A stretch of 61,466 bases of DNA from Candidatus Saccharimonadales bacterium (GCA_030146045.1 JASLDG010000006.1:1-61466), one strand, 5' to 3'. Counted from the stretch's first letter, positions 1 to 43,796 are shown. Numbers and translations are program-made. Notes: generated by a model from the letters alone, not told the origin.

Positions 1-1906
1 CGCCCATACACTTCGGAGTACCACCATCGTTCATACAGTATGTACCTCCAAGAATAGAACCGACAAACGGTATTGCCCATGCGCCGTCATCTGTTCCGAT
101 CGGGTCAACATCTTGCACTAAGCGGAATGGCGCATTCATAACATAAGATGAGGCAATCGACAGGAGTCCAGAGTAAGCAGGAGTGAATCCCATACAACCC
201 AAGTTACGCTGTGATGGAGCGCACACAAAGTCACCACCTAAACTAAACCCTTCAGCATCAAGACCATTGTCGAATTTATAGCCAACACCCCCAGGGAATG
301 CCTTACCGAAGAGATCACCAGGCAATATCGACTGCCATGCCGCAACATTTGGCACATACCCTGTGTAATTAAACGGTTGCACCGTCAAGGTCATCACTGG
401 TGTACCCCAATTAAATGGCAGAGCAATCCCCCAACAGTAGAGTTTCCCGTCGGTTATCGCACAGCTGTAGTGCGATCCTGCACCGATACGATCAAGTTTA
501 CGTCCGTACAATTTACCTGTATCGCTATCAGGTGCAACGATTGTTGGCGGAAAAAGTCCGAACCAGCCGCTACTACCTGGTCCCGGTACACCAACCGTAT
601 TGAAGATTGGGTCTACAAATGCACCGACCGCGTTCTTGGCAGTAGATGCCACCATACTGACAACTGGAGCAGCTTTCCAGTTCTCATATCCAAAAGGAGG
701 TGCTGGATTTGGCATGATTGCAGATGTACCAATGGCACCGGTTGAACTACCGAGCGTAAACGGTAGATTGTCGCAAAACCTCTGCTCGCCACCCAAGAAC
801 ATATTAAGAAACTGGAGCCAGTTCAGTGGATTGATAATCGCCTGGAAAATATTTGGCTTTTGCATCGTACAGTTCAGTGACCCTACTTGCTGGTAATCAT
901 TACCGCCCCAGCAATATGGTGCACCATCAGTCACTGCACAACTGTGCTGGAACACCGGTATAAACTGTGGCGCTGGCGTATTAGAAGGAGACGTACCTAT
1001 ATCGGTCACGAGACGGCCCTTCAATGTCAACCCCCAGTTTGCCGATGGGTCAACTTGATTGCCGACCCGTTGCGGCACAGCAACGCCCATCCCGCGCACC
1101 GCCTCATTACCCTGATTCTTAATCTGACCCATCAACGAGTCGGTCGCAAGCATGCTACCATTGCCGACCTGTCCGGCCAAATTATTACCCCAGCAATATG
1201 GCTCACCATCAGCAATCGCACAGGTGGTGGAATCGCTCACGGCGACCTTGGAAATAAATTTATTGCCTAATGCTGTTACCTGCGTCGGTACATTACGTTG
1301 CGTAAAATCACCCGTACCAAGCATACCCCATCCATTTGGACCCCAGCAGTACAGCTTACCGTTGTTAATCGAACATACATGAGCGTCAGCCTTTACATCA
1401 GTTGCAACCGCGCCCTTGGCATTGGCCATCACTTTGACAGTAGGCTGAATAATCACAACACGTGAGACCTGGTATGGATCGCCGACTTTGTTTCCACCCT
1501 GCATTCGCTGTACTGACCCGATTACCGTGGCCTTCATTGTATCTGGCCCATATTCTTCTGCACGAACAGGGGGCTTCACTTCGAAAGTTGACTGCCACGA
1601 GCCGTCGGACGCTTCTGTCACATAGGGCATACCACTTCCTGTTGCCGCAGTACCATCACACCTTTTATCTGGCGTCAGACTCGCAGTCCAGAGGTGACCT
1701 GATTCCATACGCACACACCCAGTCGCAAGCGACACCCCTGCTTGTGCGGCCTCTCGTGCGATCTGATTAAATGAAGTATCATTAAACTGCTGGCTTGAGT
1801 TAGTCACAAGTGAATAAAGCGTCACTGATGCAGTCATGATGCCTACACCTAGCAAAATAATTGCCGGTAAAATAAATCCTGTCTGTTGCGTTCGTCGTAT
1901 TTTCAT
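1..1906 (-). CDS. Giant pilus-associated protein, copy 2: PilX-like N-terminal helix plus RCC1-like propeller repeats (C-terminus lies beyond the window start)
   Basis: Missing from the ORF track because it stays open to nt 1. Manual translation from the ATG at 1906-1904 (1 nt after the stop of 1908..2774) gives MKIRRTQQTGFILPAIILLGVGIMTASVTLYSLV...QIAREAAQAGV. Blades follow: CSINNGKLYCWG, CAIADGEPYCWG, CAVTDGAPYCWG, CAITDGKLYCWG. No stop in 635 codons. Colinear with 3253..6333 (RIGAGSHYSCAITDG vs RIGAGGHFSCAITEG; NLGCMGFTPAYSGL vs NFNCMGYTPAFSGL). Confidence 0.8.
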   Translation of the reverse strand, partial: MKIRRTQQTGFILPAIILLGVGIMTASVTLYSLVTNSSQQFNDTSFNQIAREAAQAGVSLATGCVRMESGHLWTASLTPDKRCDGTAATGSGMPYVTEASDGSWQSTFEVKPPVRAEEYGPDTMKATVIGSVQRMQGGNKVGDPYQVSRVVIIQPTVKVMANAKGAVATDVKADAHVCSINNGKLYCWGPNGWGMLGTGDFTQRNVPTQVTALGNKFISKVAVSDSTTCAIADGEPYCWGNNLAGQVGNGSMLATDSLMGQIKNQGNEAVRGMGVAVPQRVGNQVDPSANWGLTLKGRLVTDIGTSPSNTPAPQFIPVFQHSCAVTDGAPYCWGGNDYQQVGSLNCTMQKPNIFQAIINPLNWLQFLNMFLGGEQRFCDNLPFTLGSSTGAIGTSAIMPNPAPPFGYENWKAAPVVSMVASTAKNAVGAFVDPIFNTVGVPGPGSSGWFGLFPPTIVAPDSDTGKLYGRKLDRIGAGSHYSCAITDGKLYCWGIALPFNWGTPVMTLTVQPFNYTGYVPNVAAWQSILPGDLFGKAFPGGVGYKFDNGLDAEGFSLGGDFVCAPSQRNLGCMGFTPAYSGLLSIASSYVMNAPFRLVQDVDPIGTDDGAWAIPFVGSILGGTYCMNDGGTPKCMG

Positions 1907-1907
1907 T

Positions 1908-2774
1908 TTAGCTCTCCCCATTAGTTCGCGTCACTATCACTGAATCCGTCGCTTCAAGTTTTCCCTTTTTAACCGTAATCTGAACTCTTATATATTTCGC
2001 TTTTGAAATATCGTCCGAACTGTTGATCTCTTGTGGCGTGCCGTCAGCTGCATTATTTTCGCGGTAATAAGACACTTTAAATCCCTGAACGTTCTCGAGC
2101 ACTTTTGCATCACGACCTTCACAAATCTTCGTATTATTATACCCTTGCGGACAGGTTTGTTTTGTACCATTCTCTAGATTACTCGCTCCCACGTACGCAC
2201 AAAGGCTCTTTGGCTTTTCATTTGGTCGCGCCGCATCATAATACGGAATACTTCGCCGCCAAAGTACACTATCTTTCACATAATAAACAAACGTATTACG
2301 CATGAAGCTCGTACAGCTACTGTCCGCCCATAAAACCTTGCGCTGTGGATCGTCGATATTATCCCCTTCGTCCGAAACAGTGGTCGCGTATTTTTGATAC
2401 ATCAAAATATTCTTGTCCATATTGTTCCCAAGGAATGTATATGGTGATGTGTCCCATTTTTTCGTCTCAGGACTTGCGAGAGTCGCGCCAGGATTTGTTG
2501 GATCTGGACCCACTTTATCTGTCGTGTCAATCTTAAGGAAGCTCACCGCTAGTACCACATCTTTAGAGACACGTCCAAGCGCGGCCTTGATATCAGTTTG
2601 CTGAACGACCGTCGCCATTTCAGTCGTTTGCGAACGCCAAATTGCATCCATTGGCCCAAACACGAGCGCCATTAAGATACCGGCTACCGCCATGACAATG
2701 AGAAGCTCTACCAAAGTAAAGCCTTTTTGTACGTTAATTAATGTAGGCCGCACGAACAACCGTCTCCGTTTCAT
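1908..2774 (-). CDS. Type IV minor pilin/pseudopilin, PilW-like (module 2)
   Basis: 288 aa. N-terminus ...INVQKG|FTLVELLIVMAVAGILMALVFGP has the prepilin cleavage/methylation motif plus a hydrophobic helix. Paralogue of 6330..7115 (shared GP.DA....S, V.FYVKD..L.RR blocks). Its start overlaps the upstream gene by 41 nt. Confidence 0.75.
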   Translation of the reverse strand: MKRRRLFVRPTLINVQKGFTLVELLIVMAVAGILMALVFGPMDAIWRSQTTEMATVVQQTDIKAALGRVSKDVVLAVSFLKIDTTDKVGPDPTNPGATLASPETKKWDTSPYTFLGNNMDKNILMYQKYATTVSDEGDNIDDPQRKVLWADSSCTSFMRNTFVYYVKDSVLWRRSIPYYDAARPNEKPKSLCAYVGASNLENGTKQTCPQGYNNTKICEGRDAKVLENVQGFKVSYYRENNAADGTPQEINSSDDISKAKYIRVQITVKKGKLEATDSVIVTRTNGES

Positions 2775-3174
2775 ATCTCACCTCAGCCTTGATTAGTATT
2801 GGCGCATTCGCAAGACACCCCTGAGGATAAAACACCAGGAGTCTTTGACTCGTCGTGGATGGTAAATTGGATTTTTCTGGAAGCGTCTGTGGAATAGTTA
2901 CACTCTTACCTGGTGCGTGACTATTGCGCGTTAAATCAGCAACCGCTTGCCCACCGCTCATCTCTGAGCAATCAATACCCCCAGGCAGCTGAGCCTGCTC
3001 TCGGTAGCGACCTACAATCCCTGCGGCGAGATTATTCGCTTCAGCATAGCGTATCGTCTTTACGCGCTGTGTCTGCACTGCTATAAATCCTTGCATTAAG
3101 AATGTAAAGAAGACAGAAAATACAACAATCGCGACAATCGTCTCAACAATAGTAAACCCCTCTTGTTTTCCCAT
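2734..3174 (-). CDS. Type IV minor pilin/pseudopilin, PilV-like (module 2)
   Basis: 146 aa. MGKQEG|FTIVETIVAIVVFSVFFTFLMQGFIAVQTQRV has the prepilin motif. Clear paralogue of 7096..7551. Confidence 0.75.
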   Translation of the reverse strand: MGKQEGFTIVETIVAIVVFSVFFTFLMQGFIAVQTQRVKTIRYAEANNLAAGIVGRYREQAQLPGGIDCSEMSGGQAVADLTRNSHAPGKSVTIPQTLPEKSNLPSTTSQRLLVFYPQGCLANAPILIKAEVRYETETVVRAAYIN

Positions 3175-3252: not shown

Positions 3253-6200
3253 CTAGAAGATTGGGCCGCGCTTGAATGGCGTGTCTGTCACATAGTCGTC
3301 AGTTGCCTGAGGTTGCAAGACGGCTCCAGGGGCACTTGCGATGCCGCTCTGGCCGCTTGTCGCATCACCCCAGCACAGGATACGGCCGTTAGCGACACTA
3401 CAGCTCGATCCAAGCCCGGCACTGATAGAAATTGACGCATTGCCACTTGCCGCACCGGTATTGACGACAACTGGACGTAGGCGATCTGTCGTCGCCTGAC
3501 CGTCACCGACACGACCGCTTGCAGCATTGCCCCAGCAATAGATTATTCCCTGAAGAACTGCACAGGCGTGCGCATCACCCACAGCAAGATCATTCGCCTG
3601 CAAACCACCCGCAACACCTGCAACCTTAGTAGGAATCTTGCCATCGGTTGAGCCCGTACCACCAGCTGCATCGGTACCAATCTGGCCATCTGTATTACGG
3701 CCCCAGCAACTCACAAAACTATTGATAACCGCACAGGTAAAGTTATTACCTGCACTGATTTGCGTAAAGGCCGGTGTCAGTTGATTACTATTCACGCCAC
3801 CAGCAGTACCGAGGATAAGCTGCCCGGCACCACCTGTATTTGTATCTCCAAGATTCGTGTTGCGTCCTGTCGCATAGTTTGCGTTCGTACCCCAGCAATA
3901 CCCATTGCCATTCGCGACCGCGCAGGCATGCTCTTTACCCATACTGATTGAGGTCGTCGCCTTGTCAGTCAACCCAGTGACCGGTACCGGAGAAGGGCGT
4001 GTCGTGGTTGAATTGTCACCTATCTGATGACGATTATTCTTGCCCCAGCAATACGCGCGCCCATCAGCGATCGCACACGTCCCTGTGTCACCAGCGCTGA
4101 CATCAGTCACGCGCTTACCCGCAAAAGCCCCGACAAGTGTTGGTACGTTTTTGGAACTAAGCGTACCATCACCAAGCTGACCATCGGTGTTGCGACCCCA
4201 ACAATAGAGCTGTCCGATAGAGATACCACAGGTATGATTTGTACCAGCACTTACTTTGCGGAAGACGCGATCAGCAACAGAGCTGACGATGCGCGGCTGC
4301 TTGACGTTCGTACCGTTTGGCACTGCAGCACCCATGCCGAGTTGCCCGTCATCATTCTTGCCCCAGCAGAATATCTGGCCGTTCACGATGCCACAGCTAT
4401 GACCGCCACCGGTTGAGGCCGAACCATCGGCGGCATAGGTCCCGGGATCAGCCCCGAGTGATCCAATCGATATCTGCGATGCACGATTGACCGTATCGTT
4501 CATACCGCCACCATTGCCAAGAGCACCAGAACCGCCATCAAGTCCCCAGCTAAATACCTGTCCATTCGCAATCATAGTGCCGTACATGCCGCTTGCTGCG
4601 ATTCGCGTTGGCACTTTGCCAGTGAAATCTGGACTCCCCCCTGTCAAAAGAGGGTTGAACTTCGTATTGCCAAAAATTGAGACGCCCGGGTCGGTACCCG
4701 TCGGTGCGCCTTCAATTGACCCAACACAACCGGCATTTCGATTGCTCGTCGTATCGGTTGGTGCTACCGCGCAAAACGTACCAAAGAACCCATTTACCCA
4801 TGGGATAACCTGCGACCATTGCCCATTATCGTGATCAACAACATCATAATTCGACAGAACAGTTACGGGCGCATTCAAGAAGTATGCTGTCAGGAAACTC
4901 GCAAGACCGCTGAATGCCGGTGTGTATCCCATACAGTTAAAGTTCCAGCTCGACATACCACAAGAAATGTCTCCGCTAAAGTTATATGAGGTGGTATCAA
5001 TCGGTTGCGTGTTTGCTCCAACCATTTCATATGGCGTACTTGTGACAGTAAATGGCTTTGGCATACCCCATACCGCCGGCAACCGCATACCCCAGCAGAT
5101 TTGTCGCCCTTCAGTGATCGCGCAACTGAAATGTCCGCCAGCGCCGATTCGGTCAATCTTGTGCCCAAAAAGTTCAGATTGCGTACTCTGCCTGCCGTAT
5201 GGGCTACACCCAAAAATTGGCACACAAAGCTGATTGTTATTATTGTCGTACCCGTAGACTGGTGTCGGCTCTTTGACAAACAATAGGTCTGAAATCGTAC
5301 CAAATGGATTTGTCTGATCGGTATCGCACGGCAACAGCGGCAAACAGACAATGTTGCCCAGTTGATAGTAATCATTACCACCCCAGCAGTACGCCGCCCC
5401 ATCGGTCACTGCGCAGCCATGCCGCATTACTGGCAATGGCTGAGGGAATGGATAATTTTGCGATGAAATCGACAGGTCGGTCACCTTGCGATTCTGCAAA
5501 TCACCCTTCACCTCCACTGGAACATTACTATCAGCATTGGTACCATTACCAAGCAACCCACTGATACCAGCACCCCAGCAGTACGCCTTGCCATCGGCAA
5601 TCGCACAGGTATTCGCATCACTCACGGTTACTTTTGAGACATACTTTCCTGTCAGCGCGCCGCCAACAAGCTTCGGTGAGGCTTCACCGAGCGATACCGT
5701 CCCAAGACCAAGCTCACCGCTTGTATTCTGGCCCCAACACCACAATTTTCCATTTGCAATCGCACAGGTATGCTGGTCGGCACGCACATCGGTTGCGACT
5801 TGTCCGGTTGCCTTATGTAAATAGCCATTACCCGGCTTAAAAACACTTATTTTTGTCGCTTCAATCGTCTTAACTGGTACGCCGGCCTGTAAGAGCTCGA
5901 CTTTACCCTTTGAAACAATCTGGCTCGTCTCAGCATCGTAGGTGCTGCTCTTTGATACCGGTGATGTCACCTCGAACGTCGAACGCCATACATTATCAGA
6001 TGACTGATAGACATACTGCGATGGAGCAGACGGTGAGCCGCTTGTAATTACCACGCCATTACAATCCGTGTTTGGACGCAAAAGCTTTGCACCTTGTATC
6101 CACTCTTTCGTACCTTCGGTCAAGCATCCTGTTGCGTATGCAATCCCCGAACGCGCCGCTTCCTGGGCCATTGTCTGGAAGGATTGGCCGTTTAGCGCCT

Positions 6201-6333
6201 GGCTCGACGATGCAATGACCTGCAAATACAGAGCAATGACAATCGAGATAGCCACGCAGAGCAGGATAGTCGCCGGTAATACATAGGCACGCTCGCCTTG
6301 CTTGCCTGTCATATTCTTGAAATACTCCATCAC
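3253..6333 (-). CDS. Giant pilus-associated protein, copy 1: PilX-like N-terminal helix fused to about 13 RCC1-type propeller blades
   Basis: 1026 aa. N-terminus ERAYVLPATILLCVAISIVIALYLQVIASSSQ...MAQEAARSGI. CWG/SWG/CMG blade signatures at aa 199, 252, 316, 413, 467, 595, 656, 711, 762, 813, 876, 933 and 987, many followed by G.N..GQLG. 4-nt ATGA overlap with the upstream pseudopilin gene. Confidence 0.85.
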   Translation of the reverse strand: MMEYFKNMTGKQGERAYVLPATILLCVAISIVIALYLQVIASSSQALNGQSFQTMAQEAARSGIAYATGCLTEGTKEWIQGAKLLRPNTDCNGVVITSGSPSAPSQYVYQSSDNVWRSTFEVTSPVSKSSTYDAETSQIVSKGKVELLQAGVPVKTIEATKISVFKPGNGYLHKATGQVATDVRADQHTCAIANGKLWCWGQNTSGELGLGTVSLGEASPKLVGGALTGKYVSKVTVSDANTCAIADGKAYCWGAGISGLLGNGTNADSNVPVEVKGDLQNRKVTDLSISSQNYPFPQPLPVMRHGCAVTDGAAYCWGGNDYYQLGNIVCLPLLPCDTDQTNPFGTISDLLFVKEPTPVYGYDNNNNQLCVPIFGCSPYGRQSTQSELFGHKIDRIGAGGHFSCAITEGRQICWGMRLPAVWGMPKPFTVTSTPYEMVGANTQPIDTTSYNFSGDISCGMSSWNFNCMGYTPAFSGLASFLTAYFLNAPVTVLSNYDVVDHDNGQWSQVIPWVNGFFGTFCAVAPTDTTSNRNAGCVGSIEGAPTGTDPGVSIFGNTKFNPLLTGGSPDFTGKVPTRIAASGMYGTMIANGQVFSWGLDGGSGALGNGGGMNDTVNRASQISIGSLGADPGTYAADGSASTGGGHSCGIVNGQIFCWGKNDDGQLGMGAAVPNGTNVKQPRIVSSVADRVFRKVSAGTNHTCGISIGQLYCWGRNTDGQLGDGTLSSKNVPTLVGAFAGKRVTDVSAGDTGTCAIADGRAYCWGKNNRHQIGDNSTTTRPSPVPVTGLTDKATTSISMGKEHACAVANGNGYCWGTNANYATGRNTNLGDTNTGGAGQLILGTAGGVNSNQLTPAFTQISAGNNFTCAVINSFVSCWGRNTDGQIGTDAAGGTGSTDGKIPTKVAGVAGGLQANDLAVGDAHACAVLQGIIYCWGNAASGRVGDGQATTDRLRPVVVNTGAASGNASISISAGLGSSCSVANGRILCWGDATSGQSGIASAPGAVLQPQATDDYVTDTPFKRGPIF

Positions 6334-7115
6334 ACCCCCGTTCCATTCACTCGTATCATACGCAATTTACTCGATGATGTCATGATATTCGATCCGCTGC
6401 CGTCACTGAGCTGTATCTCAACTTCAACCGATGTTGCCGCACTTGCGTCGCTCGGGTACGGCATTTCATTACCGTCACTTCCGTAGTACGTAACGGCGAA
6501 TTTTTTAACTCCGCGAGCTATCACCGCGTCACTCCCCTGGCATTCGGGCTGGCTAGCCCCTGGTGCGCAAGTCTGATGCATACCATTGGAAAGAGCTGAC
6601 TGACTCGAGCACCGACTACTAGGAGAAGCATCTGGCGACGAACGACGATACAGCGTGCCGTCTTTTACATAGAACACCATCGTATTCTCAATCGGCGTCG
6701 CGCAATCCGCCAGCATCAATATTACACGTGCAGGATTATCAACTGTATCACTGGACTCACCCATATTCGTTGCGTATCGGCCGATAATCAGCACGCGATT
6801 ATCAGCACCGCTCCCTTCGTATGTGTACGGCGCAGTATTCCACTTCGACCCCAACCCCGTCGGACCAACCGGGTCACTTTCGTTCGTTGTGTAAAAACCT
6901 CCAGCAAGTGCAACATCGCGCTCTATCATACGCAGCGATGCTCGCGCATCATACACTTGAGTCATCTTTTTCGTATCAGTCACACTCGAGGTATACAGCG
7001 CATCGAGCGGCCCAAACAAAATCATCATCATAATCGCCGCCACGAACATCACAATCAACAGCTCAACAATCGTGAAGCCATGCATCGCACGCGCTTTAAT
7101 TAACATATTCGACAT
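6330..7115 (-). CDS. Type IV minor pilin/pseudopilin, PilW-like (module 1)
   Basis: 261 aa. ...ARAMHG|FTIVELLIVMFVAAIMMMILFGPLDALYTSS has the prepilin motif. Overlaps neighbours by 20 nt (5') and 4 nt (3'). The start could instead be the internal ATG at 7106 or 7085. Confidence 0.75.
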   Translation of the reverse strand: MSNMLIKARAMHGFTIVELLIVMFVAAIMMMILFGPLDALYTSSVTDTKKMTQVYDARASLRMIERDVALAGGFYTTNESDPVGPTGLGSKWNTAPYTYEGSGADNRVLIIGRYATNMGESSDTVDNPARVILMLADCATPIENTMVFYVKDGTLYRRSSPDASPSSRCSSQSALSNGMHQTCAPGASQPECQGSDAVIARGVKKFAVTYYGSDGNEMPYPSDASAATSVEVEIQLSDGSGSNIMTSSSKLRMIRVNGTGV

Positions 7116-7551
7116 GTGTCACCTTCTCTGCATCATATTTCACAACCGACCGCAGCAACGCCGGCATTTGCGCGCCACATCCTCGCGGATACACAACCTC
7201 TATATAGTAGTCAGTCGACGAAGGAAGCGCCGTCCCCGTCAGTGAGCCGCCAATCTGCGCCTTGCCAATAACCGACCCCGGGGCAGTGGTATTGTAGGTA
7301 TAATTGTTTGGATTAGATGAGTCGGTGACTGCATTGTTACACGCAACAGTACTCGGTAAACTTAATTTTTTGGTATATTTCTTGAGATTAGAAGTAGCGA
7401 GGTCATGCGCGTCTGACAAGCGAACCACCTGGACACGCTGTGATGTCGCCGCAATAAATCCCTGAAAAAGCAGACCTACAAAAATCCCGACCACAACTAT
7501 TGTCACGATCATCTCGACAATGGTAAAACCAGCGCTTGCCCTATACCCCAT
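7096..7551 (-). CDS. Type IV minor pilin/pseudopilin, PilV-like (module 1)
   Basis: 151 aa. MGYRASAG|FTIVEMIVTIVVVGIFVGLLFQGFIAATSQRV has the prepilin motif. Confidence 0.75.
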   Translation of the reverse strand: MGYRASAGFTIVEMIVTIVVVGIFVGLLFQGFIAATSQRVQVVRLSDAHDLATSNLKKYTKKLSLPSTVACNNAVTDSSNPNNYTYNTTAPGSVIGKAQIGGSLTGTALPSSTDYYIEVVYPRGCGAQMPALLRSVVKYDAEKVTHVEYVN

Positions 7552-9149: not shown

Positions 9150-9242
9150 AGATGGTGGTATTTTGTAAATTATACCATAATGTCACCACAAATCATATAG
9201 CTTGCGCTCAGATTGTTGGTTTTTATCATGCAGAAGATAACC

Positions 9243-9279
9243 AAAGAAAAGAGAGTAGCCTAGCTACTCTCTTTTCTTT
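9243..9279 (-). terminator. Hairpin immediately 3' of tRNA-Arg(TCG)
   Basis: 17-bp perfect stem aaagaaaagagagtagc / gctactctcttttcttt with a 3-nt loop. T-rich 3' arm on the minus strand. Confidence 0.45.
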
Positions 9280-10555: not shown

Positions 10556-11020
10556 ATGAATCTTCAACAAAAAATCAAGAAAGCACAGAGTGAACGCGGT
10601 TTCACCATCGTCGAGCTCTTGATCGTGATCGTCGTCATTGGTATCTTGGCAGCGATTGTGATTGTGGCATTTACCGGCGTGCAAAAACAAGCAAAAATCG
10701 CAGGCTATAAATCTGACGCAAATGGTATCGTAAAGGTTGCAGAAGCCATAAATGCAGACAAGCAGAGTTATCCGGTAGGTGCAGATGCTGCGGCGACAAA
10801 AACACTTTACGAGGCTACGACAAATACAGTTAAGCTTCCGCCAAAGGTTCGTATCACCGCCGTCACTTCAGCACCAACAATCACTGAAGCTAACGGCCCA
10901 ACTGTAGATAGCACCACTGGAGTAAAAACATATACCGTATGGGCATGTACTAACGGTGCAAATGTCTACTTCTGGGATGGATCAGCAGTTGTTATCAATA
11001 AAGCTGGTGACGGCTGCTAA
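10556..11020 (+). CDS. Type IV pilin (candidate major pilin)
   Basis: 154 aa. ...KAQSERG|FTIVELLIVIVVIGILAAIVIVAFTGVQKQAK. Short, monocistronic, followed by a strong terminator. Confidence 0.85.
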   Translation: MNLQQKIKKAQSERGFTIVELLIVIVVIGILAAIVIVAFTGVQKQAKIAGYKSDANGIVKVAEAINADKQSYPVGADAAATKTLYEATTNTVKLPPKVRITAVTSAPTITEANGPTVDSTTGVKTYTVWACTNGANVYFWDGSAVVINKAGDGC

Positions 11021-26460: not shown

Positions 26461-26586
26461 TATGCACTTTCTTCTCATCTGGGTAGCTACCCGATATCTC
26501 TATTGGTCAGCGTCCGGATGACGAAGACACAAGATGAGATTTCGCACTATACGTCTGTATAAAGCAAAACCTCATCTTGTGCAGTT

Positions 26587-38173: not shown

Positions 38174-39955
38174 ATGCGTATATCAGACGGAACCATCGAG
38201 AAGCTCCTATTACAGGGAGATCACGTCACCGACGAACAACTTTCTCAGCTGAAAGCAGAGGGGGCACGTTCAAGGCGTCCCTTGCAAGATCTTGTTATCC
38301 AAGAAGATATTATGAGCGAGGCTGCCCTTACTCAGCTCTTTGCCGAATATGCCGACCTTCCTTTTATCGTCCTCGATCCTAAGGATATACCACCTGACGT
38401 ACTCATGCACATCCCTGAAAACATCGCTCGGCAGTATAATGCCGTGCTATTTCGGATTGACGAAGATGGTCTCCAGCATCTGGCCATGGATGATCCTGAC
38501 GATGTCCAGGCAGTTGACTTTATCCAAAAGCAAATTGGCGATAACACTAAGATTTACATCGCACCGCATGATAATATTCTCGCTGCTCTCGATAACTATC
38601 GCGGCGATGTCGACAAAGAGTTGAACGATGTTATTGATATCCAGCGTGAAGAAGATACCGCCAATGACAAGGTGAGCGATGAGGATGTTGCCGAGAATTC
38701 ACCAATTGCTCAGACCATCAACCTATTACTTGAGTATGCAATTCGTTCGCATGCCAGTGATATTCATATTGAACCTCGAGAAGATTTTGTCCAGATCCGG
38801 TATCGTATTGATGGTGTTCTGCACGAAGTTAATCGCTTGCCGCGCAATGTTCATGCCGCGTTGATCAGTCGCCTTAAAATTCTGTCCAATCTTAAGATCG
38901 ATGAACGTCGTGTACCACAAGATGGCCGCTTTAAAATTAAAGTCGGCGGCAAACAATACGCGCTGCGCGTCAGCACCTTGCCGATCGCCGATGGCGAAAA
39001 GGTTGTCATGCGTATCCTCGACGAGTCCAACCAAGCTGTTACTCTTGACCAGCTCGGATATTGGGGACATTCATTTGAAGTCATCACCAAGGCTATGCAT
39101 GAACCGCATGGCATGATCCTCGTCACCGGCCCAACCGGCTCCGGTAAATCAACAAGCTTGTTTAGCGTTCTAACGCAGCTTAATCATCCGGACGTCAATA
39201 TCTCCACTATCGAGGACCCAGTTGAGTATAAAATTCCAGGCGTTAACCAAACCCAAACCAACGTTAAGGCTGGTATGACCTTTGCCTCTGGCCTCCGCGC
39301 GTTGCTGCGTCAGGACCCAAACATTATCATGGTCGGTGAGATTCGTGACGGCGAAACAGCCAACTTGGGCGTGCAGGCGGCTTTGACGGGACATTTGGTT
39401 TTCAGCACCCTTCACACCAACAATGCTGCCACCACCTTGCCACGTTTACTTGATATGGAAATTGAGCCATTTTTGATTGCAAGTACCGTACGCGCTGTCG
39501 TCGGACAGCGTCTCGTGCGTCGCATTGACCGCGAAACACGCATCGCCTATGCGCCAACCGAAGAGGAAAAACAGGCATTTATCCAAATGTTCAATCTTCG
39601 TGAAGGTCAAACGTTCAAGCACATCCATGAGCTTGAAAAACAAGCGGCGGCCGCAGGTGTCGGAGGTGACACACCTCTCAGTACGACCGAAACAGATATT
39701 AAAGTGCTCTACAAACCTGCCGAGACTGAAGATGTTAACGGCAAGCATGACGGCTTTAAGGGGCGTGTCGGCATCTACGAAGTACTCGACAATACACTTT
39801 CTATCCAAAAAATGATTACCAGCAATGCAACAGCTAACCAAATCCAGGAACAAGCAATCAAAGAGGGGATGATTACAATGCAGACAGATGGGCTCGTCAA
39901 GGCACTTCGAGGTGAGACAACAATAGAAGAAATACTGAGGGTAACAAGGGAATAA
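38174..39955 (+). CDS. pilB: Type IV pilus assembly ATPase (GspE/PilB family)
   Basis: 593 aa. GspII_E N-domain, Walker A GPTGSGKSTSLF, MVGEIRD, HLVFSTLHTN. Confidence 0.92.
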   Translation: MRISDGTIEKLLLQGDHVTDEQLSQLKAEGARSRRPLQDLVIQEDIMSEAALTQLFAEYADLPFIVLDPKDIPPDVLMHIPENIARQYNAVLFRIDEDGLQHLAMDDPDDVQAVDFIQKQIGDNTKIYIAPHDNILAALDNYRGDVDKELNDVIDIQREEDTANDKVSDEDVAENSPIAQTINLLLEYAIRSHASDIHIEPREDFVQIRYRIDGVLHEVNRLPRNVHAALISRLKILSNLKIDERRVPQDGRFKIKVGGKQYALRVSTLPIADGEKVVMRILDESNQAVTLDQLGYWGHSFEVITKAMHEPHGMILVTGPTGSGKSTSLFSVLTQLNHPDVNISTIEDPVEYKIPGVNQTQTNVKAGMTFASGLRALLRQDPNIIMVGEIRDGETANLGVQAALTGHLVFSTLHTNNAATTLPRLLDMEIEPFLIASTVRAVVGQRLVRRIDRETRIAYAPTEEEKQAFIQMFNLREGQTFKHIHELEKQAAAAGVGGDTPLSTTETDIKVLYKPAETEDVNGKHDGFKGRVGIYEVLDNTLSIQKMITSNATANQIQEQAIKEGMITMQTDGLVKALRGETTIEEILRVTRE

Positions 39956-39959
39956 TATT

Positions 39960-41186
39960 ATGCCACGATACAAATACATAGCAACAACAGAAAATGGCGC
40001 ACCTGCGGACGGTATGCTTGACGCCCCTGATCAGGGAAGCGCCGTTGAACTTCTTAAGAAACAGCATCTTCGACCCTTGAGCGTCACTCTTGACATCGGC
40101 AAAAAAGGCTTTAGTCTTGACAGCCTTCTTGGCGGCAAAAAAGTCAAGTCTGACGACCTTGTTATCTTTACGCGCCAGCTCAGTGCCATGGTCAGCGCCG
40201 GCGTCCCCCTCCTCCGCTCGCTCAGTTCCCTCGAACAGCACTCGGAAAGTCCAGCACTCAAGGCAATTCTTGTCGATATCATCAAAGACGTCGAGGGCGG
40301 TGCACCGCTCGCCGATTCGCTCGGCAAACACCCTGAAACCTTCAGCGACGTCTACGTCAACATGGTGCGTGCCGGTGAAGCTGCCGGTATTCTTGACGAA
40401 ATTCTCAAGCGCCTCGCCCTCCAGCAGGAAAAGAATGCCACTATCCGCAAAAAAGTCAAAGGCGCCATGACCTACCCGATGGTGCTGATCGTCATTACAG
40501 TCATTGCCTTCTTCGGCCTGATGCTTTTCGTCATTCCGCAAATCGGCAACATCCTGACCAGCCTCGGCGGCCCAGACGCAGAACTTCCATTCATTACTAA
40601 GATGATGCTCGGTTTCAGCTCTTTCATGTTAAGCTATTGGTTCATTATCATTCCTGCTTTTATCGGTGGCACCTGGGGACTACTCCGCTATATTAAAACC
40701 CCTGGCGGCAAGCGCCAGTTCCATAAGTTCGTCTTAAAGGTTCCTGCGGTCAACGGCGTCATCCAAAAGGTTATCATCGCGCGATTCGCCCGTACCTTCT
40801 CGTCACTTGCTGGCGCCGGTGTTTCAATCATTGAGACGCTAACCGTGACCGCACATGCACTCGGTAATACCGTCTACGAGCAGGCGCTACTTGACTCAGT
40901 CGAGCAGATCAAGAACGGTAAGCAGCTCTCACGCGTACTCGAAGAAGATAACCTCTTCCCCGCAATCGTGTCACAAATGCTCGCCGTCGGTGAAGAGACC
41001 GGACAAACTGACACCGTTCTGGTAAAGGTGGCTGAATTTTATGAGGAAGAGGTCGATACTGCAATTAACAGCCTCAGCTCCATTATCGAGCCTGTCATGA
41101 TCGTTATTATGGGCTCAGTTGTTGGTCTTGTTGCGGCCAGCGTCATGGGGCCAATTGCAAGTCTTGCTCAAAACATTAAGGGCTAG
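39960..41186 (+). CDS. pilC: Type IV pilus platform protein (GspF/PilC family)
   Basis: 408 aa. Two GspF repeats and three TM segments. Confidence 0.9.
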   Translation: MPRYKYIATTENGAPADGMLDAPDQGSAVELLKKQHLRPLSVTLDIGKKGFSLDSLLGGKKVKSDDLVIFTRQLSAMVSAGVPLLRSLSSLEQHSESPALKAILVDIIKDVEGGAPLADSLGKHPETFSDVYVNMVRAGEAAGILDEILKRLALQQEKNATIRKKVKGAMTYPMVLIVITVIAFFGLMLFVIPQIGNILTSLGGPDAELPFITKMMLGFSSFMLSYWFIIIPAFIGGTWGLLRYIKTPGGKRQFHKFVLKVPAVNGVIQKVIIARFARTFSSLAGAGVSIIETLTVTAHALGNTVYEQALLDSVEQIKNGKQLSRVLEEDNLFPAIVSQMLAVGEETGQTDTVLVKVAEFYEEEVDTAINSLSSIIEPVMIVIMGSVVGLVAASVMGPIASLAQNIKG

Positions 41187-41238
41187 GCGTAAGCAGAATG
41201 ACATGCTATACTAGCATCAATACAACAACGTGGGCATC

Positions 41239-42291
41239 ATGAATAGATTATTTTACCAAGACAAACCAATTATCGGCGTCGATATTAGCAGCACGGACCT
41301 CAAGGTCATGTCGATTGACGCCAAGCATCATATCGTACAAGGTTATGGTAACCTTGACCTCGATCCACTACGTATCAAAAAAGCGTTTGACGAAGAAGAC
41401 ACTTACCTTTCCGATAGCCTCGTTGGACTTCTTGATAAAAAACTTGTAGGATCACTCGCCAGCGACCAGGTCGTGCTTGGTATCCCGACCGTTCGTACAT
41501 TCTCGCGTACCTTTACTGTTCCGCTCTCTGCCGAGAAAACACTTAAGGACGCAGTTGCCATAGAGGTATCGCAATATATCCCAATTCCGCTCCCCCTCCT
41601 ATACGTTGATTACGAAATTATCGAGCGAGACGACCAGAATTTAACCGTCATTATGAGCGCCGTACCTCGCAAGATTGTCGACACTGCTATTGCCGCATGT
41701 GAAACGGCAGGCCTTGCTGTCAACATGATTGAACCTGCTATTAACGCCGTTGCACGTGTTCTTAAGGCGACCGAAGATGGTCATCTTCCGACAGTGATCG
41801 TCGACATTGGCGCTGCCAATACCGATATTGCCGTTCTTGATGGTTCAATCCGTATTACTGGGGGCACCGGTACTGGTGGCAATACATTTACTCTTGATAT
41901 TGCCAAAAAACTGAGCGTCACACTTGAAAACGCACACCAGCTGAAGGTCTTGAACGGCCTTGCGCCGGGCGCACGCCAAGAAAAAATTACCGCAGCTTTG
42001 CGCCCATCACTTCGTAGTATTATTACCGAAACCCGAAAGGTTATCCGCTACTACAATGAACGCCTTAGCAATAACCGTCGACTTGAACAAGTCCTGATCG
42101 TTGGTAGCGGCAGTAACGTACCTGGTATTGGTGAGTACTTTACGAACGAACTCGTGATGCCAGCTCGCACAGCTAATCCTTGGCAGCAACTTGACTTCGG
42201 TAGCCTTCCGCAACCCGCTAAGCAATTTCGCTCACGCTACATTACCGTAGCAGGTCTCGCGAACGTGAACAAAGGGGAGATGTGGCAATGA
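41239..42291 (+). CDS. pilM: Type IV pilus assembly protein PilM (actin-like ATPase fold)
   Basis: IIGVDISSTDLKVM..., IVDIGAANTDIAVL, LIVGSGSNVPGI. The track ORF starts at the GTG at 41230; ATG at 41239. Confidence 0.85.
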   Translation: MNRLFYQDKPIIGVDISSTDLKVMSIDAKHHIVQGYGNLDLDPLRIKKAFDEEDTYLSDSLVGLLDKKLVGSLASDQVVLGIPTVRTFSRTFTVPLSAEKTLKDAVAIEVSQYIPIPLPLLYVDYEIIERDDQNLTVIMSAVPRKIVDTAIAACETAGLAVNMIEPAINAVARVLKATEDGHLPTVIVDIGAANTDIAVLDGSIRITGGTGTGGNTFTLDIAKKLSVTLENAHQLKVLNGLAPGARQEKITAALRPSLRSIITETRKVIRYYNERLSNNRRLEQVLIVGSGSNVPGIGEYFTNELVMPARTANPWQQLDFGSLPQPAKQFRSRYITVAGLANVNKGEMWQ

Positions 42292-42842
42292 TCAATTTAT
42301 TACCAGACGAATATAAAAAAGATCTTCGTTCGGCACGAATGAATGTCGCCCTTCTTCGCTATAATATGTTCGCTATCATTGCGGTCGTTGTCCTTGGGGT
42401 TGCATGGGGCATGTTCTCGGTTTCGCTCAATCTCACCGAAGGTAATGCCAAGGCCGAAAGTAAGAAAAACCAAGATGATGCACGTCAATATGATACCGCA
42501 AAGAAAGAATGGGAAGACTACAATAAAAATCTCGCATTTGCAAAGCAAATCTTAGGAGACCAAGTAAGCTACACCCAAGCAATCGTCCGCGTCACGGAAC
42601 TGATGCCAAAAAACACCGTGCTCGATAATCTTAATTTATCAGCACAAGATTTCGGCAATCAAGTCGTACTCTCTGCGCACGCTAAAACACGTGACGATGC
42701 ACTTAAAATTAAAGAGAGTTTCGAAAAGTCAGACTTCTTCTCTAATGTATTTTTCCAAAGCATCACCGAAACAGATGGGTCGAAGAGTGATTATCCGGTC
42801 GGTGTCAATATCAGTGTCAAAATTAACAAGGTGAAAAACTAA
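42282..42842 (+). CDS. pilN: PilN-like (fimbrial assembly) protein
   Basis: 186 aa. INLLPDEYKK start, single TM helix, 10-nt overlap with pilM. Confidence 0.7.
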   Translation: MAMINLLPDEYKKDLRSARMNVALLRYNMFAIIAVVVLGVAWGMFSVSLNLTEGNAKAESKKNQDDARQYDTAKKEWEDYNKNLAFAKQILGDQVSYTQAIVRVTELMPKNTVLDNLNLSAQDFGNQVVLSAHAKTRDDALKIKESFEKSDFFSNVFFQSITETDGSKSDYPVGVNISVKINKVKN

Positions 42843-43483
42843 TGGTCAACAAAAAGTCAGCCTCAGGAATTACCGCACCAAAGCTTCGACTTATCTTAAT
42901 TGCGACGATTGTTCTCTTGATCATCGCAGGAGGTTTTGGGTTCGCGTTTGCTCGTGAACAGCTTGTAAAGCGTGCAGCCGACGTTGCCATCGCGACTGCC
43001 TCTGAGAAAGAAAGTAAAAAGAATAAAGATGCGCTTCGTAGCATTGAATCAAAACTAAGTGAAAATCGTGACGAAGTAAAACGAACGAGCGAAATTGTTG
43101 CTCCTCTTGATAATTTTGAGTACCAGGTTCGTATTATCAAGGACGTACAAGCATATGCAGCTAAGGCAGGTGTCACCATTCGTGGCTTCTCATTCACAAG
43201 CGATGTTGCCGCAGCAGGCTCGGCGTCAGGAACAACGTCTGGCTCAGCGGCTGCAGCAAGCGGTACTGCGGCTACGTCACCTGCCATCAGCGGTCTTAAG
43301 AAAGTGACGACCACCGTAGAGCTCGAGTCGCCGATTGGCTACAAGAATGTCATGAACTTCCTCTATTATCTTGAAAATAACCTAACAAAGATGCAACTAC
43401 AAGGTGTCTCACTCACGCGTGATCCGGCAAAAAATGAGATTACCGCTGGAGCGCTTAATCTGGAGGTCTACGTAAAGCAATGA
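42842..43483 (+). CDS. pilO: PilO-like protein
   Basis: 213 aa. TM helix, coiled coil and a C-terminal alpha/beta domain. TAATG overlap with pilN. Confidence 0.55.
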   Translation: MVNKKSASGITAPKLRLILIATIVLLIIAGGFGFAFAREQLVKRAADVAIATASEKESKKNKDALRSIESKLSENRDEVKRTSEIVAPLDNFEYQVRIIKDVQAYAAKAGVTIRGFSFTSDVAAAGSASGTTSGSAAAASGTAATSPAISGLKKVTTTVELESPIGYKNVMNFLYYLENNLTKMQLQGVSLTRDPAKNEITAGALNLEVYVKQ

Positions 43484-43767: not shown

Positions 43768-43796
43768 AAGTATAATAATGCGTATACTAAGAGTAT

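What the first reader, a model, noticed from the sequence alone, without database searches (positions are those of the whole stretch)
3253..6333. Cysteine-paired double RCC1 propeller as a PilY1 analogue
The N-terminus is a single hydrophobic helix followed by MAQEAARSGI, the A-E/Q-A-A-x-x-G type signature I associate with PilX-like proteins. It has no G|FTxxE cleavage site. I count blade signatures (CWG, SWG or CMG) at aa 199, 252, 316, 413, 467, 595, 656, 711, 762, 813, 876, 933 and 987. From aa ~590 to 1000 there are seven regular blades 51-63 aa apart, with G.N..GQLG after CWG; this is classic RCC1 periodicity and is consistent with one seven-bladed propeller. The first set (aa ~185-590) is irregular, with long insertions at aa 320-400 and 420-590. 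Most blades carry C-x(8)-C-W-G, that is two conserved cysteines per blade. That is unusual for cytoplasmic RCC1 proteins and suggests a disulfide-stapled extracellular fold. The insertions in propeller 1 are the most diverged region between the two paralogues and are candidate ligand-binding loops.
Basis: partly seen in the sequence, partly recalled or inferred. Interest (0 to 1): 0.7.

Follow-up and report, generated by a model that had tools for sequence, protein, structure and literature searches.

The report
Pilus-tip adhesin with two RCC1 propellers
This gene from a Saccharibacteria-like genome encodes a pilus subunit carrying two disulfide-stapled RCC1 propellers, most likely a host-grabbing head at the tip of a type IV pilus; a single-propeller relative (PilX2 of strain TM7x) is already published, so it is a new member of a known kind.

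Summary
ORF 3253-6333(-) has one N-terminal hydrophobic helix, the AQEAAxxG motif, and CWG/SWG/CMG signatures at exactly the listed residues. AlphaFold2 gives a 54-residue helix plus a small beta-sheet, then 14 four-strand repeats, read as two seven-bladed RCC1 propellers (UVR8 TM 0.91). Fifteen cysteine pairs are invariant in 36 homologues, and ectodomain cysteine counts are even in 36 of 36.

The gene is translationally coupled to PilV- and PilW-like prepilin genes. The whole triplet is tandemly duplicated. A pilBCMNO-recX-recA cluster like TM7x "T4P-2" lies 30 kb away.

The N-domain family (about 800 clusters) has a conserved G/A|F/Y-x-L-P-T/A site and never Glu5, the GspK/PilX class. It carries varied binding modules.

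Grossman et al. 2025 already described TM7x PilX2 as an RCC1-propeller minor pilin needed for host binding, and compared it with PilY1. The protein is a pilin fusion and is not PilY1-related.

Possibly new points: the double propeller, the disulfide parity, and sharp strain-level divergence of the cassettes (flank dS 0.17; cassettes dS 1.0 or more).

The parts
3253..6333 (-). RCC1-1: 1026-aa PilX/GspK-class modular minor pilin with two RCC1 propellers (the finding)
6286..6333 (-). Short basic leader (aa 1-16) ending in ERA|YVLPA. This is a degenerate class III (prepilin-like) site with Ala at -1, Tyr at +1, Pro at +4 and Ala at +5 (no Glu5).
   Evidence: family: -1 G67/A8, +1 F52/Y23, +4 P70/75, +5 never E
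6118..6285 (-). Long alpha-1 helix (aa about 17-72). The hydrophobic first half is the membrane or filament-core segment. The second half carries the AQEAAxSGIxYAxxC motif.
   Evidence: hydropathy; AF2 helix 18-71; alignment
5800..6117 (-). Small beta-sheet head of the pilin-like module (aa about 73-178), with the invariant C70-C91 pair
4459..5799 (-). Propeller 1 (repeats 1-7, aa about 179-625). It is irregular, with indel-rich, low-confidence loops at aa about 320-392, 414-449, 470-489 and 538-573. Repeat 6 is degenerate (C521...C536-V-G). Repeat 7 has lost both cysteines.
3298..4458 (-). Propeller 2 (repeats 8-14, aa about 626-1012). These are regular RCC1 blades, each with C-x8-C-W-G.
3253..3297 (-). 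Conserved C-terminal strand and tail ending ...[YF]xxGP[IV][FY]-COOH, plus the stop codon
6330..7115 (-). PilW/GspJ/HpsC-like prepilin of cassette 1 (261 aa, G|FTIVELL). Its stop overlaps the RCC1-1 ATG.
7096..7551 (-). PilV/GspI/HpsB-like prepilin of cassette 1 (151 aa, G|FTIVEMI)
2734..3174 (-). PilV-like prepilin of cassette 2 (146 aa), 37% identical to its cassette-1 counterpart
1908..2774 (-). PilW-like prepilin of cassette 2 (288 aa as ORF), 36% identical to its cassette-1 counterpart
1..1924 (-). RCC1-2: N-terminal about 640 aa of the second paralogue (QTG|FILPA), cut by the window end. Its full-length orthologue P0012 is 1256 aa.
10556..11020 (+). Canonical type IVa pilin (154 aa, ERG|FTIVELL, C-terminal Cys pair). 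Candidate major pilin (PilA2-like) for the same pilus.
   Evidence: synteny
38174..43483 (+). pilB (593 aa), pilC (408), pilM (353), pilN, and a 213-aa pilO-like ORF with no Pil family hit, named by position. recX and recA follow and no pilT is present. This is the layout of TM7x T4P-2 'locus two'.

Best explanation
The gene encodes a tip-class (GspK/PilX/ComGG-like, Glu5-less) minor pilin of a Saccharibacteria type IV pilus, with two seven-bladed RCC1 propellers grafted onto its C-terminus.

Proposed mechanism:
1. The short basic leader and hydrophobic helix insert the protein N-in/C-out.
2. It is probably cleaved after Gly/Ala(-1) by the prepilin peptidase.
3. It assembles with its cognate PilV-like and PilW-like partners into the priming complex that ends up at the pilus tip. 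These partners are encoded immediately upstream and are translationally coupled.
4. It lacks Glu5, so it can only be the top-most subunit.
5. The disulfide-stapled propellers are then displayed at the end of the T4P-2-type filament. The pilB-pilC-pilM-pilN-pilO-like genes are in the same window.
6. The propellers bind a surface ligand, probably a glycan or wall polymer, on the host bacterium and tether the epibiont.

The second, co-duplicated cassette gives an alternative head.

Shown here: the architecture, fold, operon context, cysteine pairing statistics, family-wide signal motif, modularity and strain-level divergence. Inferred: peptidase cleavage, tip location, ligand binding and host specificity. 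The last three lean on published genetics for TM7x PilX2.
For: Fold:
- AF2 pLDDT is 83 and pTM 0.81. The model has a 54-residue helix, a beta-sheet and then 14 four-strand repeats.
- Foldseek gives UVR8 at E 5e-30, TMt 0.91, rmsd 1.7 A.
- Pfam gives RCC1 3e-66 and WD40_RLD 3e-76.

Pilin context:
- Four N_methyl prepilin genes flank the two paralogues.
- A TGATG start/stop overlap couples the gene to the upstream PilW-like gene.
- All three genes of the cassette are duplicated and equally diverged, at 34-37%.
- The neighbours hit HpsB (1e-6) and HpsC (8e-7).
- N-domain members weakly hit PilX_N (5e-3), HpsA (9e-3), GspK (0.045) and a prepilin model (4e-4).
- JGI names relatives PilX or PilV.

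Signal:
- In 75 members, -1 is G (67) or A (8), +1 is F or Y, +4 is P in 70, and +5 is T/A/S in 72 (G, V or P once each), never E.

Extracytoplasmic and disulfide-bonded:
- 15 Cys pairs are invariant.
- The blade-7 pair is CC in 29 homologues, lost together in 6, and split in 1.
- Ectodomain Cys counts are even in 36 of 36.
- Each pair falls on the fourth cross-strand position of its hairpin in the DSSP string.

Adhesin role:
- The same N-domain (875 clusters at E<=1e-3, always N-terminal) carries RCC1, ricin lectin, ConA-like lectin, phage Collar/Gp10_C and fibrinogen-C modules.
- RCC1 propellers also occur in phage tail fibres.

Machinery:
- pilBCMNO plus recX/recA match TM7x locus two in content and gene sizes.

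Literature:
- TM7x PilX2 is an RCC1-propeller minor pilin without a predicted PilD site. Its deletion halves host binding, like deletion of pilA2 or pilB2 (PMC12206443).

Diversification:
- Against the relative L028, the flank is 98.8% identical in protein and has dS 0.17.
- Cassette-1 proteins are 47-62% identical and cassette-2 proteins 80-93%, with dS 1.0 or more.
Against: - There is no canonical prepilin motif and no Pfam N_methyl hit.
- This particular protein has Ala, not Gly, at -1, so cleavage is unproven.
- Foldseek of the N-domain alone finds no significant pilin match. The best hit is E 0.09 and EpsI scores E 0.48. A profile search of PDB sequences finds nothing.
- Sequence hits to PilX_N, GspK and HpsA are all below curated thresholds.
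- Direct orthology to TM7x_02980 could not be tested, because the sequence was not retrievable.
- TM7x PilX2 has one propeller, not two.
Cys-Cys distances and the split into two closed propellers are therefore inferred from the DSSP string and the Foldseek superposition only.
- No ligand is known.
- In TM7x, deletion of pilX2 also altered the other (thick) pilus, so assignment to one filament is not clean.
Confidence: 0.7

Rival explanations
1. It is a membrane-anchored surface adhesin, not a pilus subunit. The N-terminal helix stays as an uncleaved type II anchor, and the propellers sit on the cell surface at the contact zone with the host. The adjacent pilin genes are then only co-regulated neighbours.
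For: There is no G|FTxxE motif and no Glu5. This protein has Ala at -1. There is no significant structural match of the N-domain to solved pilins. PilD cleavage was not predicted for TM7x PilX1 or PilX2. The TM7i homologue P0014 is an orphan with no adjacent pilin genes.
Against: Gly/Ala at -1 and Phe/Tyr at +1 are conserved at a fixed distance before the helix in 75 of 75 members. That is not expected for a plain anchor. The gene is translationally coupled to a PilW-like gene, and the three genes are co-duplicated and co-diverged. The model has a lollipop helix plus sheet. Lack of Glu5 is the rule for tip pseudopilins of the GspK class (established knowledge). In TM7x, the pilX2 deletion phenocopies the pilA2 and pilB2 deletions for binding.
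Confidence: 0.15
2. It is a priming or assembly factor whose propellers are not adhesive. The trimer mainly initiates pilus assembly. The propellers would act as a plug, a sensor or an enzyme/inhibitor module (compare the RCC1-like propeller of BLIP-II), rather than binding the host.
For: Minor-pilin complexes prime assembly in other systems (Treuner-Lange 2020, cited). The TM7x pilX2 deletion changes filament number, length and diameter. RCC1 propellers have many non-adhesive roles (one search hits are GEFs, photoreceptors and E3 ligases).
Against: The same carrier domain is fused to lectins and phage receptor-binding modules, which points to ligand binding. The TM7x pilX2 deletion still makes thin pili but binds hosts half as well. 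Deep allelic divergence of the cassettes fits a recognition surface better than a housekeeping assembly part.
Confidence: 0.1
3. It is the tip of a competence (Com-type) pseudopilus. The cassette would be a ComGE/GF/GG-like set used for DNA uptake, and the propellers would bind DNA or a DNA receptor.
For: The small neighbour hits ComGE and ComGF models weakly. Saccharibacteria are naturally competent (PMC10633639). recA and recX sit next to the pilus machinery. From memory, the G|F-x-x-P-A start resembles B. subtilis ComGG.
Against: [quoted passage not shown] RCC1 propellers and the lectin or Collar cargo of sister proteins are not DNA-binding modules. No ComGG family hit was found.
Confidence: 0.05

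Closest known systems
PilX2 (TM7x_02980) of Nanosynbacter lyticus TM7x, the T4P-2 minor pilin (Grossman et al., ISME J 2025, PMC12206443)
   Same: Both have a PilX-like N-terminal helix with no predicted PilD site and a C-terminal RCC1-repeat beta-propeller. Both are encoded next to pilW2/pilV2-type genes. Both genomes carry a pilB2-C2-M2-N2-O2 + recAX machinery without pilT, with gene sizes 592/408/350 aa in TM7x and 593/408/353 aa here. The authors propose PilX2 as the pilus adhesin and compare it with PilY1.
   Different: TM7x PilX2 is described as one seven-bladed propeller with 32 strands. This protein has 14 repeats, read as two propellers, the first irregular with long variable loops. 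Here the pilV-pilW-pilX triplet is tandemly duplicated. murB lies between the cassette and the PilA-like gene. Direct sequence orthology was not tested. Disulfides, the conserved G|FxLP(T/A) site and cassette divergence are not discussed in the paper.
GspK / PilX / ComGG class of tip (pseudo)pilins with GspI-GspJ or PilV-PilW partners
   Same: It has a hydrophobic N-terminal helix after a Gly(-1) site and lacks Glu5. It is the last gene of an I-like, J-like, K-like triplet. It is the largest subunit and carries an extra domain. Weak profile hits to PilX_N, GspK and HpsA support this.
   Different: The extra module is appended at the C-terminus, whereas GspK has an alpha-domain inserted in the sheet. 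Pro at +4 and Thr/Ala at +5 are family-specific. No hit passes a curated threshold. The host is a monoderm, so there is no secretin.
Modular type IV pilins (S. sanguinis PilB-vWA and PilC-lectin; Raynaud et al., PNAS 2021, PMC8179133)
   Same: A small pilin module carries a bulky, generic binding module that is only compatible with the pilus tip. The organism is a monoderm. The same carrier is reused with many different cargo modules.
   Different: Those pilins have a canonical IPR012902/N_methyl motif with Glu5, so that survey would not have found this family. The cargo here is RCC1 propellers rather than vWA or ConA-like lectin.
PilY1 / PilC tip adhesins of diderm T4aP
   Same: Both are large beta-propeller proteins presented by the PilV-W-X minor-pilin complex at the pilus tip, and both are involved in adhesion. 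The P. aeruginosa minor-pilin/pilY1 operon also exists as divergent alleles (from memory).
   Different: PilY1 is not a pilin and is exported by Sec. Its propeller belongs to a different family (PF05567/IPR008707), often with an N-terminal vWA domain and Ca sites. Here the propeller is RCC1-type and is covalently fused to the PilX-class subunit. No sequence or Foldseek similarity to PilY1 was found.
Eukaryotic RCC1-like domains (RCC1, UVR8, HERC2 RLD, RPGR)
   Same: They share the seven-bladed propeller fold and the repeat signature (TM 0.76-0.91).
   Different: Those are cytoplasmic or nuclear and lack paired cysteines. Here every regular blade has a C-x8-C hairpin pair, the protein is extracellular, there are two propellers in tandem, and the whole is pilin-anchored.

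Membership tests
RCC1-like repeat beta-propeller (Pfam PF00415 / PF13540 / PF25390) | Tandem 50-60-aa RCC1 repeats above the curated thresholds | tested here: met
   RCC1 220 bits (cut-off 21.7), RCC1_2 107 bits, WD40_RLD 257 bits (cut-off 150)
RCC1-like repeat beta-propeller (Pfam PF00415 / PF13540 / PF25390) | Closed seven-bladed propeller fold | tested here: met
   In the AF2 model (pLDDT 83), UVR8 superposes with TMt 0.91, rmsd 1.7 A over 380 columns. Closure of the first, irregular propeller is inferred from 7 + 7 repeats only.
Type IV pilin (class III signal peptide; PF07963 / TIGR02532) | G|F-T-L-x-E cleavage/methylation motif with Glu5 | tested here: not met
   There is no N_methyl hit. 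The sequence is ERA|YVLPA, and +5 is never Glu in 75 relatives.
Type IV pilin (class III signal peptide; PF07963 / TIGR02532) | Long N-terminal alpha-1 helix (hydrophobic first half) packed on an antiparallel beta-sheet | tested here: met
   AF2 gives helix 18-71 and then strands 115-173. The N-domain alone gives pLDDT 83.6 with the same topology.
Type IV pilin (class III signal peptide; PF07963 / TIGR02532) | Structural similarity to solved pilins | tested here: inconclusive
   Foldseek against PDB: best E 0.09, EpsI 2ret_E at E 0.48. The profile against PDB sequences gives 0 hits.
Type IV pilin (class III signal peptide; PF07963 / TIGR02532) | Cleavage and N-methylation by the prepilin peptidase; incorporation into filaments | not testable with these tools
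   This needs N-terminal sequencing or mass spectrometry of pili. No PilD gene was found among the window ORFs scanned.
GspK / PilX / ComGG-class tip minor pilin | Gly at -1, hydrophobic +1, no Glu5 | tested here: met
   The family has G 67 / A 8 at -1 and F/Y at +1, with no Glu5. This protein has Ala at -1, while paralogue 2 has Gly.
GspK / PilX / ComGG-class tip minor pilin | Encoded after GspI-like and GspJ-like (PilV, PilW) genes in one operon | tested here: met
   The 151-aa and 261-aa prepilins lie upstream with overlapping reading frames. The order is conserved in L021, L026, L027 and L028.
GspK / PilX / ComGG-class tip minor pilin | Match to PilX_N (PF14341), GspK (NF037980) or ComGG models at the curated threshold | tested here: not met
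   Only sub-threshold hits in single relatives: PilX_N 5e-3, GspK 0.045, HpsA 9e-3.
GspK / PilX / ComGG-class tip minor pilin | Forms a heterotrimer with the I- and J-like subunits at the filament tip | not testable with these tools
   No multimer prediction was available. Co-duplication and co-divergence of the three genes are only indirect support.
Saccharibacteria PilX2-type RCC1 minor pilin (PMC12206443) | PilX-like N-terminus plus C-terminal RCC1 propeller, next to pilW2/pilV2-type genes | tested here: met
   description of PilX2
Saccharibacteria PilX2-type RCC1 minor pilin (PMC12206443) | Genome carries a T4P-2 machinery (pilB2C2M2N2O2 + recAX, no pilT) | tested here: met
   Window 38174-46660; sizes match TM7x.
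Saccharibacteria PilX2-type RCC1 minor pilin (PMC12206443) | Sequence orthology to TM7x_02980 | not tested
   The TM7x sequence could not be retrieved with the available collections. About 550-570-aa single-propeller relatives with A|FALPA starts exist but carry no names.
PilY1 / PilC adhesin (PF05567, IPR008707) | PilY1-type C-terminal propeller domain | tested here: not met
   No Pfam hit other than RCC1 families at E<=0.01. The top 50 Foldseek PDB hits are RCC1-type or WD40; none is PilY1.
PilY1 / PilC adhesin (PF05567, IPR008707) | Non-pilin protein that docks on the minor-pilin complex | tested here: not met
   The protein carries its own pilin-like N-terminal module.

The most novel reading that the evidence does not exclude
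The pilV-pilW-pilX(RCC1) triplets may be exchangeable host-recognition cassettes, comparable to phage receptor-binding genes. Each cassette would encode a self-contained, co-evolving pilus-tip complex whose disulfide-stapled double propeller sets which host bacterium the epibiont can tether to, mainly through the hypervariable loops of propeller 1. Strains would carry two such heads in tandem and replace them by recombination at conserved pilin-helix sequences. The cassettes would then be old alleles sitting in young flanks. If so, these cassettes are the long-sought host-range determinants of Saccharibacteria.
Probability: 0.3. Interest if true: 0.65.

Novelty: new member of a known kind. Interest (0 to 1): 0.35.

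Why it matters
How ultrasmall epibiotic Saccharibacteria choose and hold their host bacteria is an open question. The only genetic handle so far is the T4P-2 pilus of TM7x and its PilX2 propeller pilin.

This locus adds four things:
- The PilX2 type belongs to a large family (about 800 clusters) of Glu5-less carrier pilins with a conserved G|FxLP(T/A) site. They present many binding modules.
- Double-propeller versions are common, making up about a quarter of the best 150 cluster representatives.
- The propellers are very probably disulfide-stapled.
- The three-gene tip cassettes are duplicated and differ deeply between strains whose flanking gene is nearly identical.

The last point gives a concrete experiment: cassette swaps followed by host-range assays. 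None of this overturns current views. It extends a recently published system.

Tried and rejected
- The search for related loci with the N-domain alignments A1 and A2 failed, because no stretch was conserved enough. The single genome-contig scan with the whole protein returned mostly generic RCC1 proteins from many phyla, and neither the source genome nor TM7x.
- TM7x PilX2 could not be retrieved. The paper's supplements give only locus tags and primers. The third homologue search returned unnamed about 560-aa candidates. Cluster look-up gave no names.
- Look-up of the window's own protein in the assembly index found nothing. The organism is therefore inferred only from homologue names and synteny.
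- Foldseek of the N-domain against PDB gave no significant pilin hit, and the PDB sequence-profile search gave nothing.
- PilY1 homology was rejected.
- Sec-type cleavage at VIA|SSS was considered and rejected. The site is not conserved in relatives and lies inside one continuous predicted helix.
- The promoter and terminator scans were no better than shuffles.
- The strong hairpin at 9240-9282 is most likely just the terminator of tRNA-Arg.
- Model coordinates are not exposed, so Cys-Cys distances and inter-propeller geometry could not be measured.


Full report
**1. What is in the sequence**

Residue numbers are in ORF numbering except where noted.

- ORF 3253-6333 on the minus strand encodes 1026 codons from GTG.
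- The ATG at codon 2 overlaps the stop of the upstream gene as TGATG.
- The only hydrophobic segment is at aa 14-45. It is followed by MAQEAARSGI.
Twelve of them are C-x8-C-[WM]-G.
- The protein has 33 cysteines: one in the helix and 32 outside it.
- Pfam gives RCC1 (3e-66), RCC1_2 and WD40_RLD (3e-76).
- tblastn finds a second paralogue starting at 1924(-) and running off the window, 34% identical over the first 521 aa.

**2. Fold**

An AlphaFold2 model was built on 36 full-length homologues. It has pLDDT 83.1 and pTM 0.81. Residues below follow P0001 numbering, which is ORF numbering minus 1.

- Residues 18-71 form one long helix.
- Residues 115-173 form a small antiparallel sheet.
- Residues 179-1009 form 14 successive four-strand repeats.
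- Residues 1013-1024 form a terminal strand.

Foldseek against the PDB puts UVR8 first (E 5e-30, TM 0.91 on the target, rmsd 1.7 A). RPGR, HERC2 RLDs and RCC1 follow. No PilY1 is in the top 50.

With it there are 14 repeats, which I read as two seven-bladed propellers:

- Propeller 1 (aa about 179-625) is irregular.
- Propeller 2 (aa about 626-1012) is regular.

The stretch called "insertion 420-590" in fact holds two degenerate blades plus loops. The real long insertion is about aa 320-392. The low-confidence loops all lie in propeller 1, except one at 890-893. I could not inspect coordinates, so closure of propeller 1 is an inference.

**3. Cysteines**

- In the 36 homologues, 15 cysteine pairs are invariant.
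- The pair of blade 7 is CC in 29 homologues, lost together in 6 (including this protein) and split in 1.
- The number of ectodomain cysteines is even in 36 of 36 while ranging from 30 to 40.
- In the DSSP string, each pair occupies the fourth cross-strand position from the hairpin turn. The two cysteines are therefore direct partners on neighbouring strands.

This is strong indirect evidence for one disulfide per blade and for an extracytoplasmic location.

The motif is not special to this protein, however. Among 82 non-pilin bacterial RCC1 hits, drawn from a pool that included Actinomycetota, Gemmatimonadota, Chloroflexi and Myxococcota, 87% of blades carry C-x(7-10)-C-W-G. That sample is biased by the search words.

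**4. The N-terminus is a degenerate prepilin signal, not just a helix**

Across 75 relatives the helix is preceded by a fixed site:

| Position | Residues found |
|---|---|
| -1 | G in 67, A in 8 |
| +1 | F in 52, Y in 23 |
| +4 | P in 70 |
| +5 | T, A or S in 72; G, V or P once each; never E |

- The median leader length is 10 residues.
- This protein reads ERA|YVLPA. Paralogue 2 reads QTG|FILPA.
- After the helix come A-x-E-A-A-x-x-G-x-x-Y-A-x-x-C and an invariant second cysteine.
- Single members give sub-threshold hits to PilX_N (5e-3), HpsA (9e-3) and GspK (0.045). Four members hit a prepilin model at 4e-4.
- JGI names several relatives PilX or PilV.
- Foldseek of the N-domain alone is not significant. 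Membership of the pilin fold therefore rests on topology, motif and context.

Lack of Glu5 together with a conserved Gly(-1) is the hallmark of GspK/PilX-type subunits that cap the filament. This is established knowledge of T2SS and T4P minor pilins.

**5. Context**

On the minus strand the gene order is:

- PilV-like (7096-7551, G|FTIVEMI)
- PilW-like (6330-7115, G|FTIVELL)
- RCC1-1
- PilV-like (2734-3174)
- PilW-like (1908-2774)
- RCC1-2

The reading frames overlap. The two triplets are 34-37% identical gene for gene. That indicates an old duplication of the whole cassette.

Elsewhere in the window:

- The small pilins hit HpsB and HpsC, and weakly GspI/J/H and ComGE/GF models.
- A canonical 154-aa pilin lies at 10556-11020.
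- pilB, pilC, pilM and pilN lie at 38174-42842. A 213-aa pilO-like ORF follows at 42842-43483. It has no Pil family hit and is named by position.
- recX and recA follow, and no pilT is present.

Relatives:

- Two related genomes have a single cassette in the same neighbourhood: DUF5684, cassette, murB, pilin, SHMT (L021 and L026). L026 is named Candidatus Saccharibacteria.
- L027 and L028 show the full tandem pair, and L023 is consistent with it.
- The TM7i homologue is an orphan.

**6. Literature**

Grossman et al. (ISME J 2025, PMC12206443) describe two type IV pili in N. lyticus TM7x.

- T4P-2 uses locus two (pilC2, pilB2, pilM2, pilN2, pilO2, recAX, no pilT) and locus three (pilA2, pilX2, pilW2, pilV2, pilZ2).
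- PilX2 has a seven-bladed RCC1 propeller and no predicted PilD site.
- Deleting it halves host binding, as deleting pilA2 or pilB2 does.
- The authors call it a candidate adhesin "similar to PilY1".
- The TM7x gene sizes (592, 408 and 350 aa) match the window's pilB, pilC and pilM (593, 408 and 353 aa).
- The word "disulfide" does not occur in the paper's main text.

Raynaud et al. (PNAS 2021, PMC8179133) define modular pilins, in which a pilin carrier bears a bulky binding module at the tip. They contrast these with PilY1.

The correction is that the protein is a pilin fusion and not a PilY1-like separate protein.

**7. Family view**

A profile of the N-domain finds 875 clusters at 50% identity (806 at E<=1e-10). 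The match is always at the N-terminus, in proteins of 148-1861 aa. The best 150 break down as follows:

| Class | Count |
|---|---|
| 10 or more RCC1 repeats | 37 |
| 5-9 RCC1 repeats | 14 |
| 2-4 RCC1 repeats (possibly partial) | 13 |
| N-domain only | 12 |
| No strict cysteine motif | 74 |

- 134 of the 150 have an even cysteine count.
- I sampled 10 of the 74. Five are still RCC1 propellers, three of them with ricin-type lectin domains. The others carry ConA-like lectin, Gly_rich_2, fibrinogen-C, or phage Collar plus Gp10_C domains.
- Separately, many pilins of about 500 aa with a canonical GFTIVEL start also carry one RCC1 propeller.
- RCC1 propellers also occur in phage tail fibres.

The cargo repertoire points to ligand binding, often to carbohydrate.

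**8. Strain-level divergence**

I compared the window with L028.

| Gene | Protein identity | dS |
|---|---|---|
| Flanking 517-aa gene | 98.8% | 0.17 |
| Cassette 1: PilV | 62% | 1.79 |
| Cassette 1: PilW | 56% | saturated |
| Cassette 1: RCC1-1 | 47% | 3.73 |
| Cassette 2: PilV | 92% | 1.13 |
| Cassette 2: PilW | 80% | 3.42 |
| Cassette 2: RCC1-2 | 93% | 1.00 |

- DNA identity is 95% from 9312 to 7379. It then collapses about 57 codons into pilV-1.
- It returns to 81% at 3267, essentially at the RCC1-1 stop.
- Neighbouring genes thus have very different synonymous divergence. That indicates recombinational exchange of old alleles, and not only relaxed constraint.
- Only 1.9 kb of one flank is available, so this is suggestive and not proven.

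Between the two paralogues, identity is fairly even at 30-60% per 50-aa block. Large indels cluster in propeller-1 loops, but they also occur in propeller 2. Family-wide indel hot spots are at aa 326-450, 251-275, 876-900 and 951-975.

**9. Conclusion**

The most likely reading (0.7) is a tip-class modular minor pilin. It would assemble with its cognate PilV- and PilW-like partners and display two disulfide-stapled RCC1 propellers on a T4P-2-type pilus to tether the epibiont to its host. The second cassette would be an alternative head.

The rivals are less likely:

- an uncleaved surface anchor (0.15)
- a mainly assembly-related role (0.1)
- a competence pseudopilus (0.05)

It is a new member of a recently described kind, not a new kind. 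The extras are the double propeller, the cysteine parity, the conserved degenerate signal and the cassette exchange.

Noticed in passing
window 3267-7379, compared with L028: Cassette 1 (pilV-1, pilW-1, RCC1-1) is unalignable at the DNA level with a relative whose adjacent 517-aa gene is 95% identical in DNA and 98.8% in protein. The breakpoints are sharp: one lies about 57 codons into pilV-1 and the other at the RCC1-1 stop. dS jumps from 0.17 to 1.0 or more (saturated in some genes).
   Followed up: yes
window 7596-9149 (-): A 517-aa protein with a hydrophobic C-terminal half and no Pfam or NCBIfam family lies directly upstream of the pilin cassettes here and in L028. It is absent from that position in the single-cassette genomes L021 and L026.
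   Followed up: partly
window 3253-3297 (-) and homologues: The C-terminal tail is conserved as Y...[YF]xxGP[IV][FY]-COOH, and the last residue is aromatic in 35 of 36 homologues. It forms a confident terminal strand in the model. Its role is unknown; it could be a propeller closure, a docking strand or a sorting signal.
   Followed up: partly
P0404, P0388, P0375, P0360, P0439, P0383 (relatives of the N-domain): The same Glu5-less carrier domain is fused to other modules in other Saccharibacteria-like proteins: RCC1 propellers together with ricin-type lectin domains, ConA-like lectins, phage tail Collar plus Gp10_C, Gly_rich_2, and fibrinogen-C.
   Followed up: partly
window 9240-9355 (-): tRNA-Arg(TCG) is followed by a perfect 20-bp hairpin, probably its terminator. 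It lies about 1.9 kb from the variable cassette boundary, and the hairpin is conserved in L028.
   Followed up: partly
window 38174-46660: A pilB-pilC-pilM-pilN-pilO-like cluster is followed by genes for a PRC-barrel protein, RecX, a NUDIX protein and RecA. This is the same pilus-plus-recAX linkage reported for TM7x locus two. No pilT or pilD was found among the window ORFs scanned.
   Followed up: partly
window 26466-26543 (-): Rfam match to RAGATH-10 RNA (55 bits, gathering score 41.2).
   Followed up: no
window 55139-61063 (-): A 1155-aa protein with a GDSL-lipase domain lies next to a 791-aa MMPL transporter. This may be a lipid-scavenging pair in an organism expected to depend on its host for lipids.
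   Followed up: no
window 51556-54003 (-) and 23920-25931 (+): A class A PBP carries C-terminal bacterial Ig-like domains (Big_3_5, Big_7). A MurT/GatD-like pair for peptidoglycan amidation is also present.
   Followed up: no
(P0197, P0203, P0210, P0224, P0230 and others): A separate class of pilins of about 500 aa has a canonical G|FTIVEL signal plus one RCC1 propeller. It occurs in Saccharibacteria, other CPR and Actinomycetota. RCC1 propellers have therefore been grafted onto both canonical and Glu5-less pilins.
   Followed up: partly
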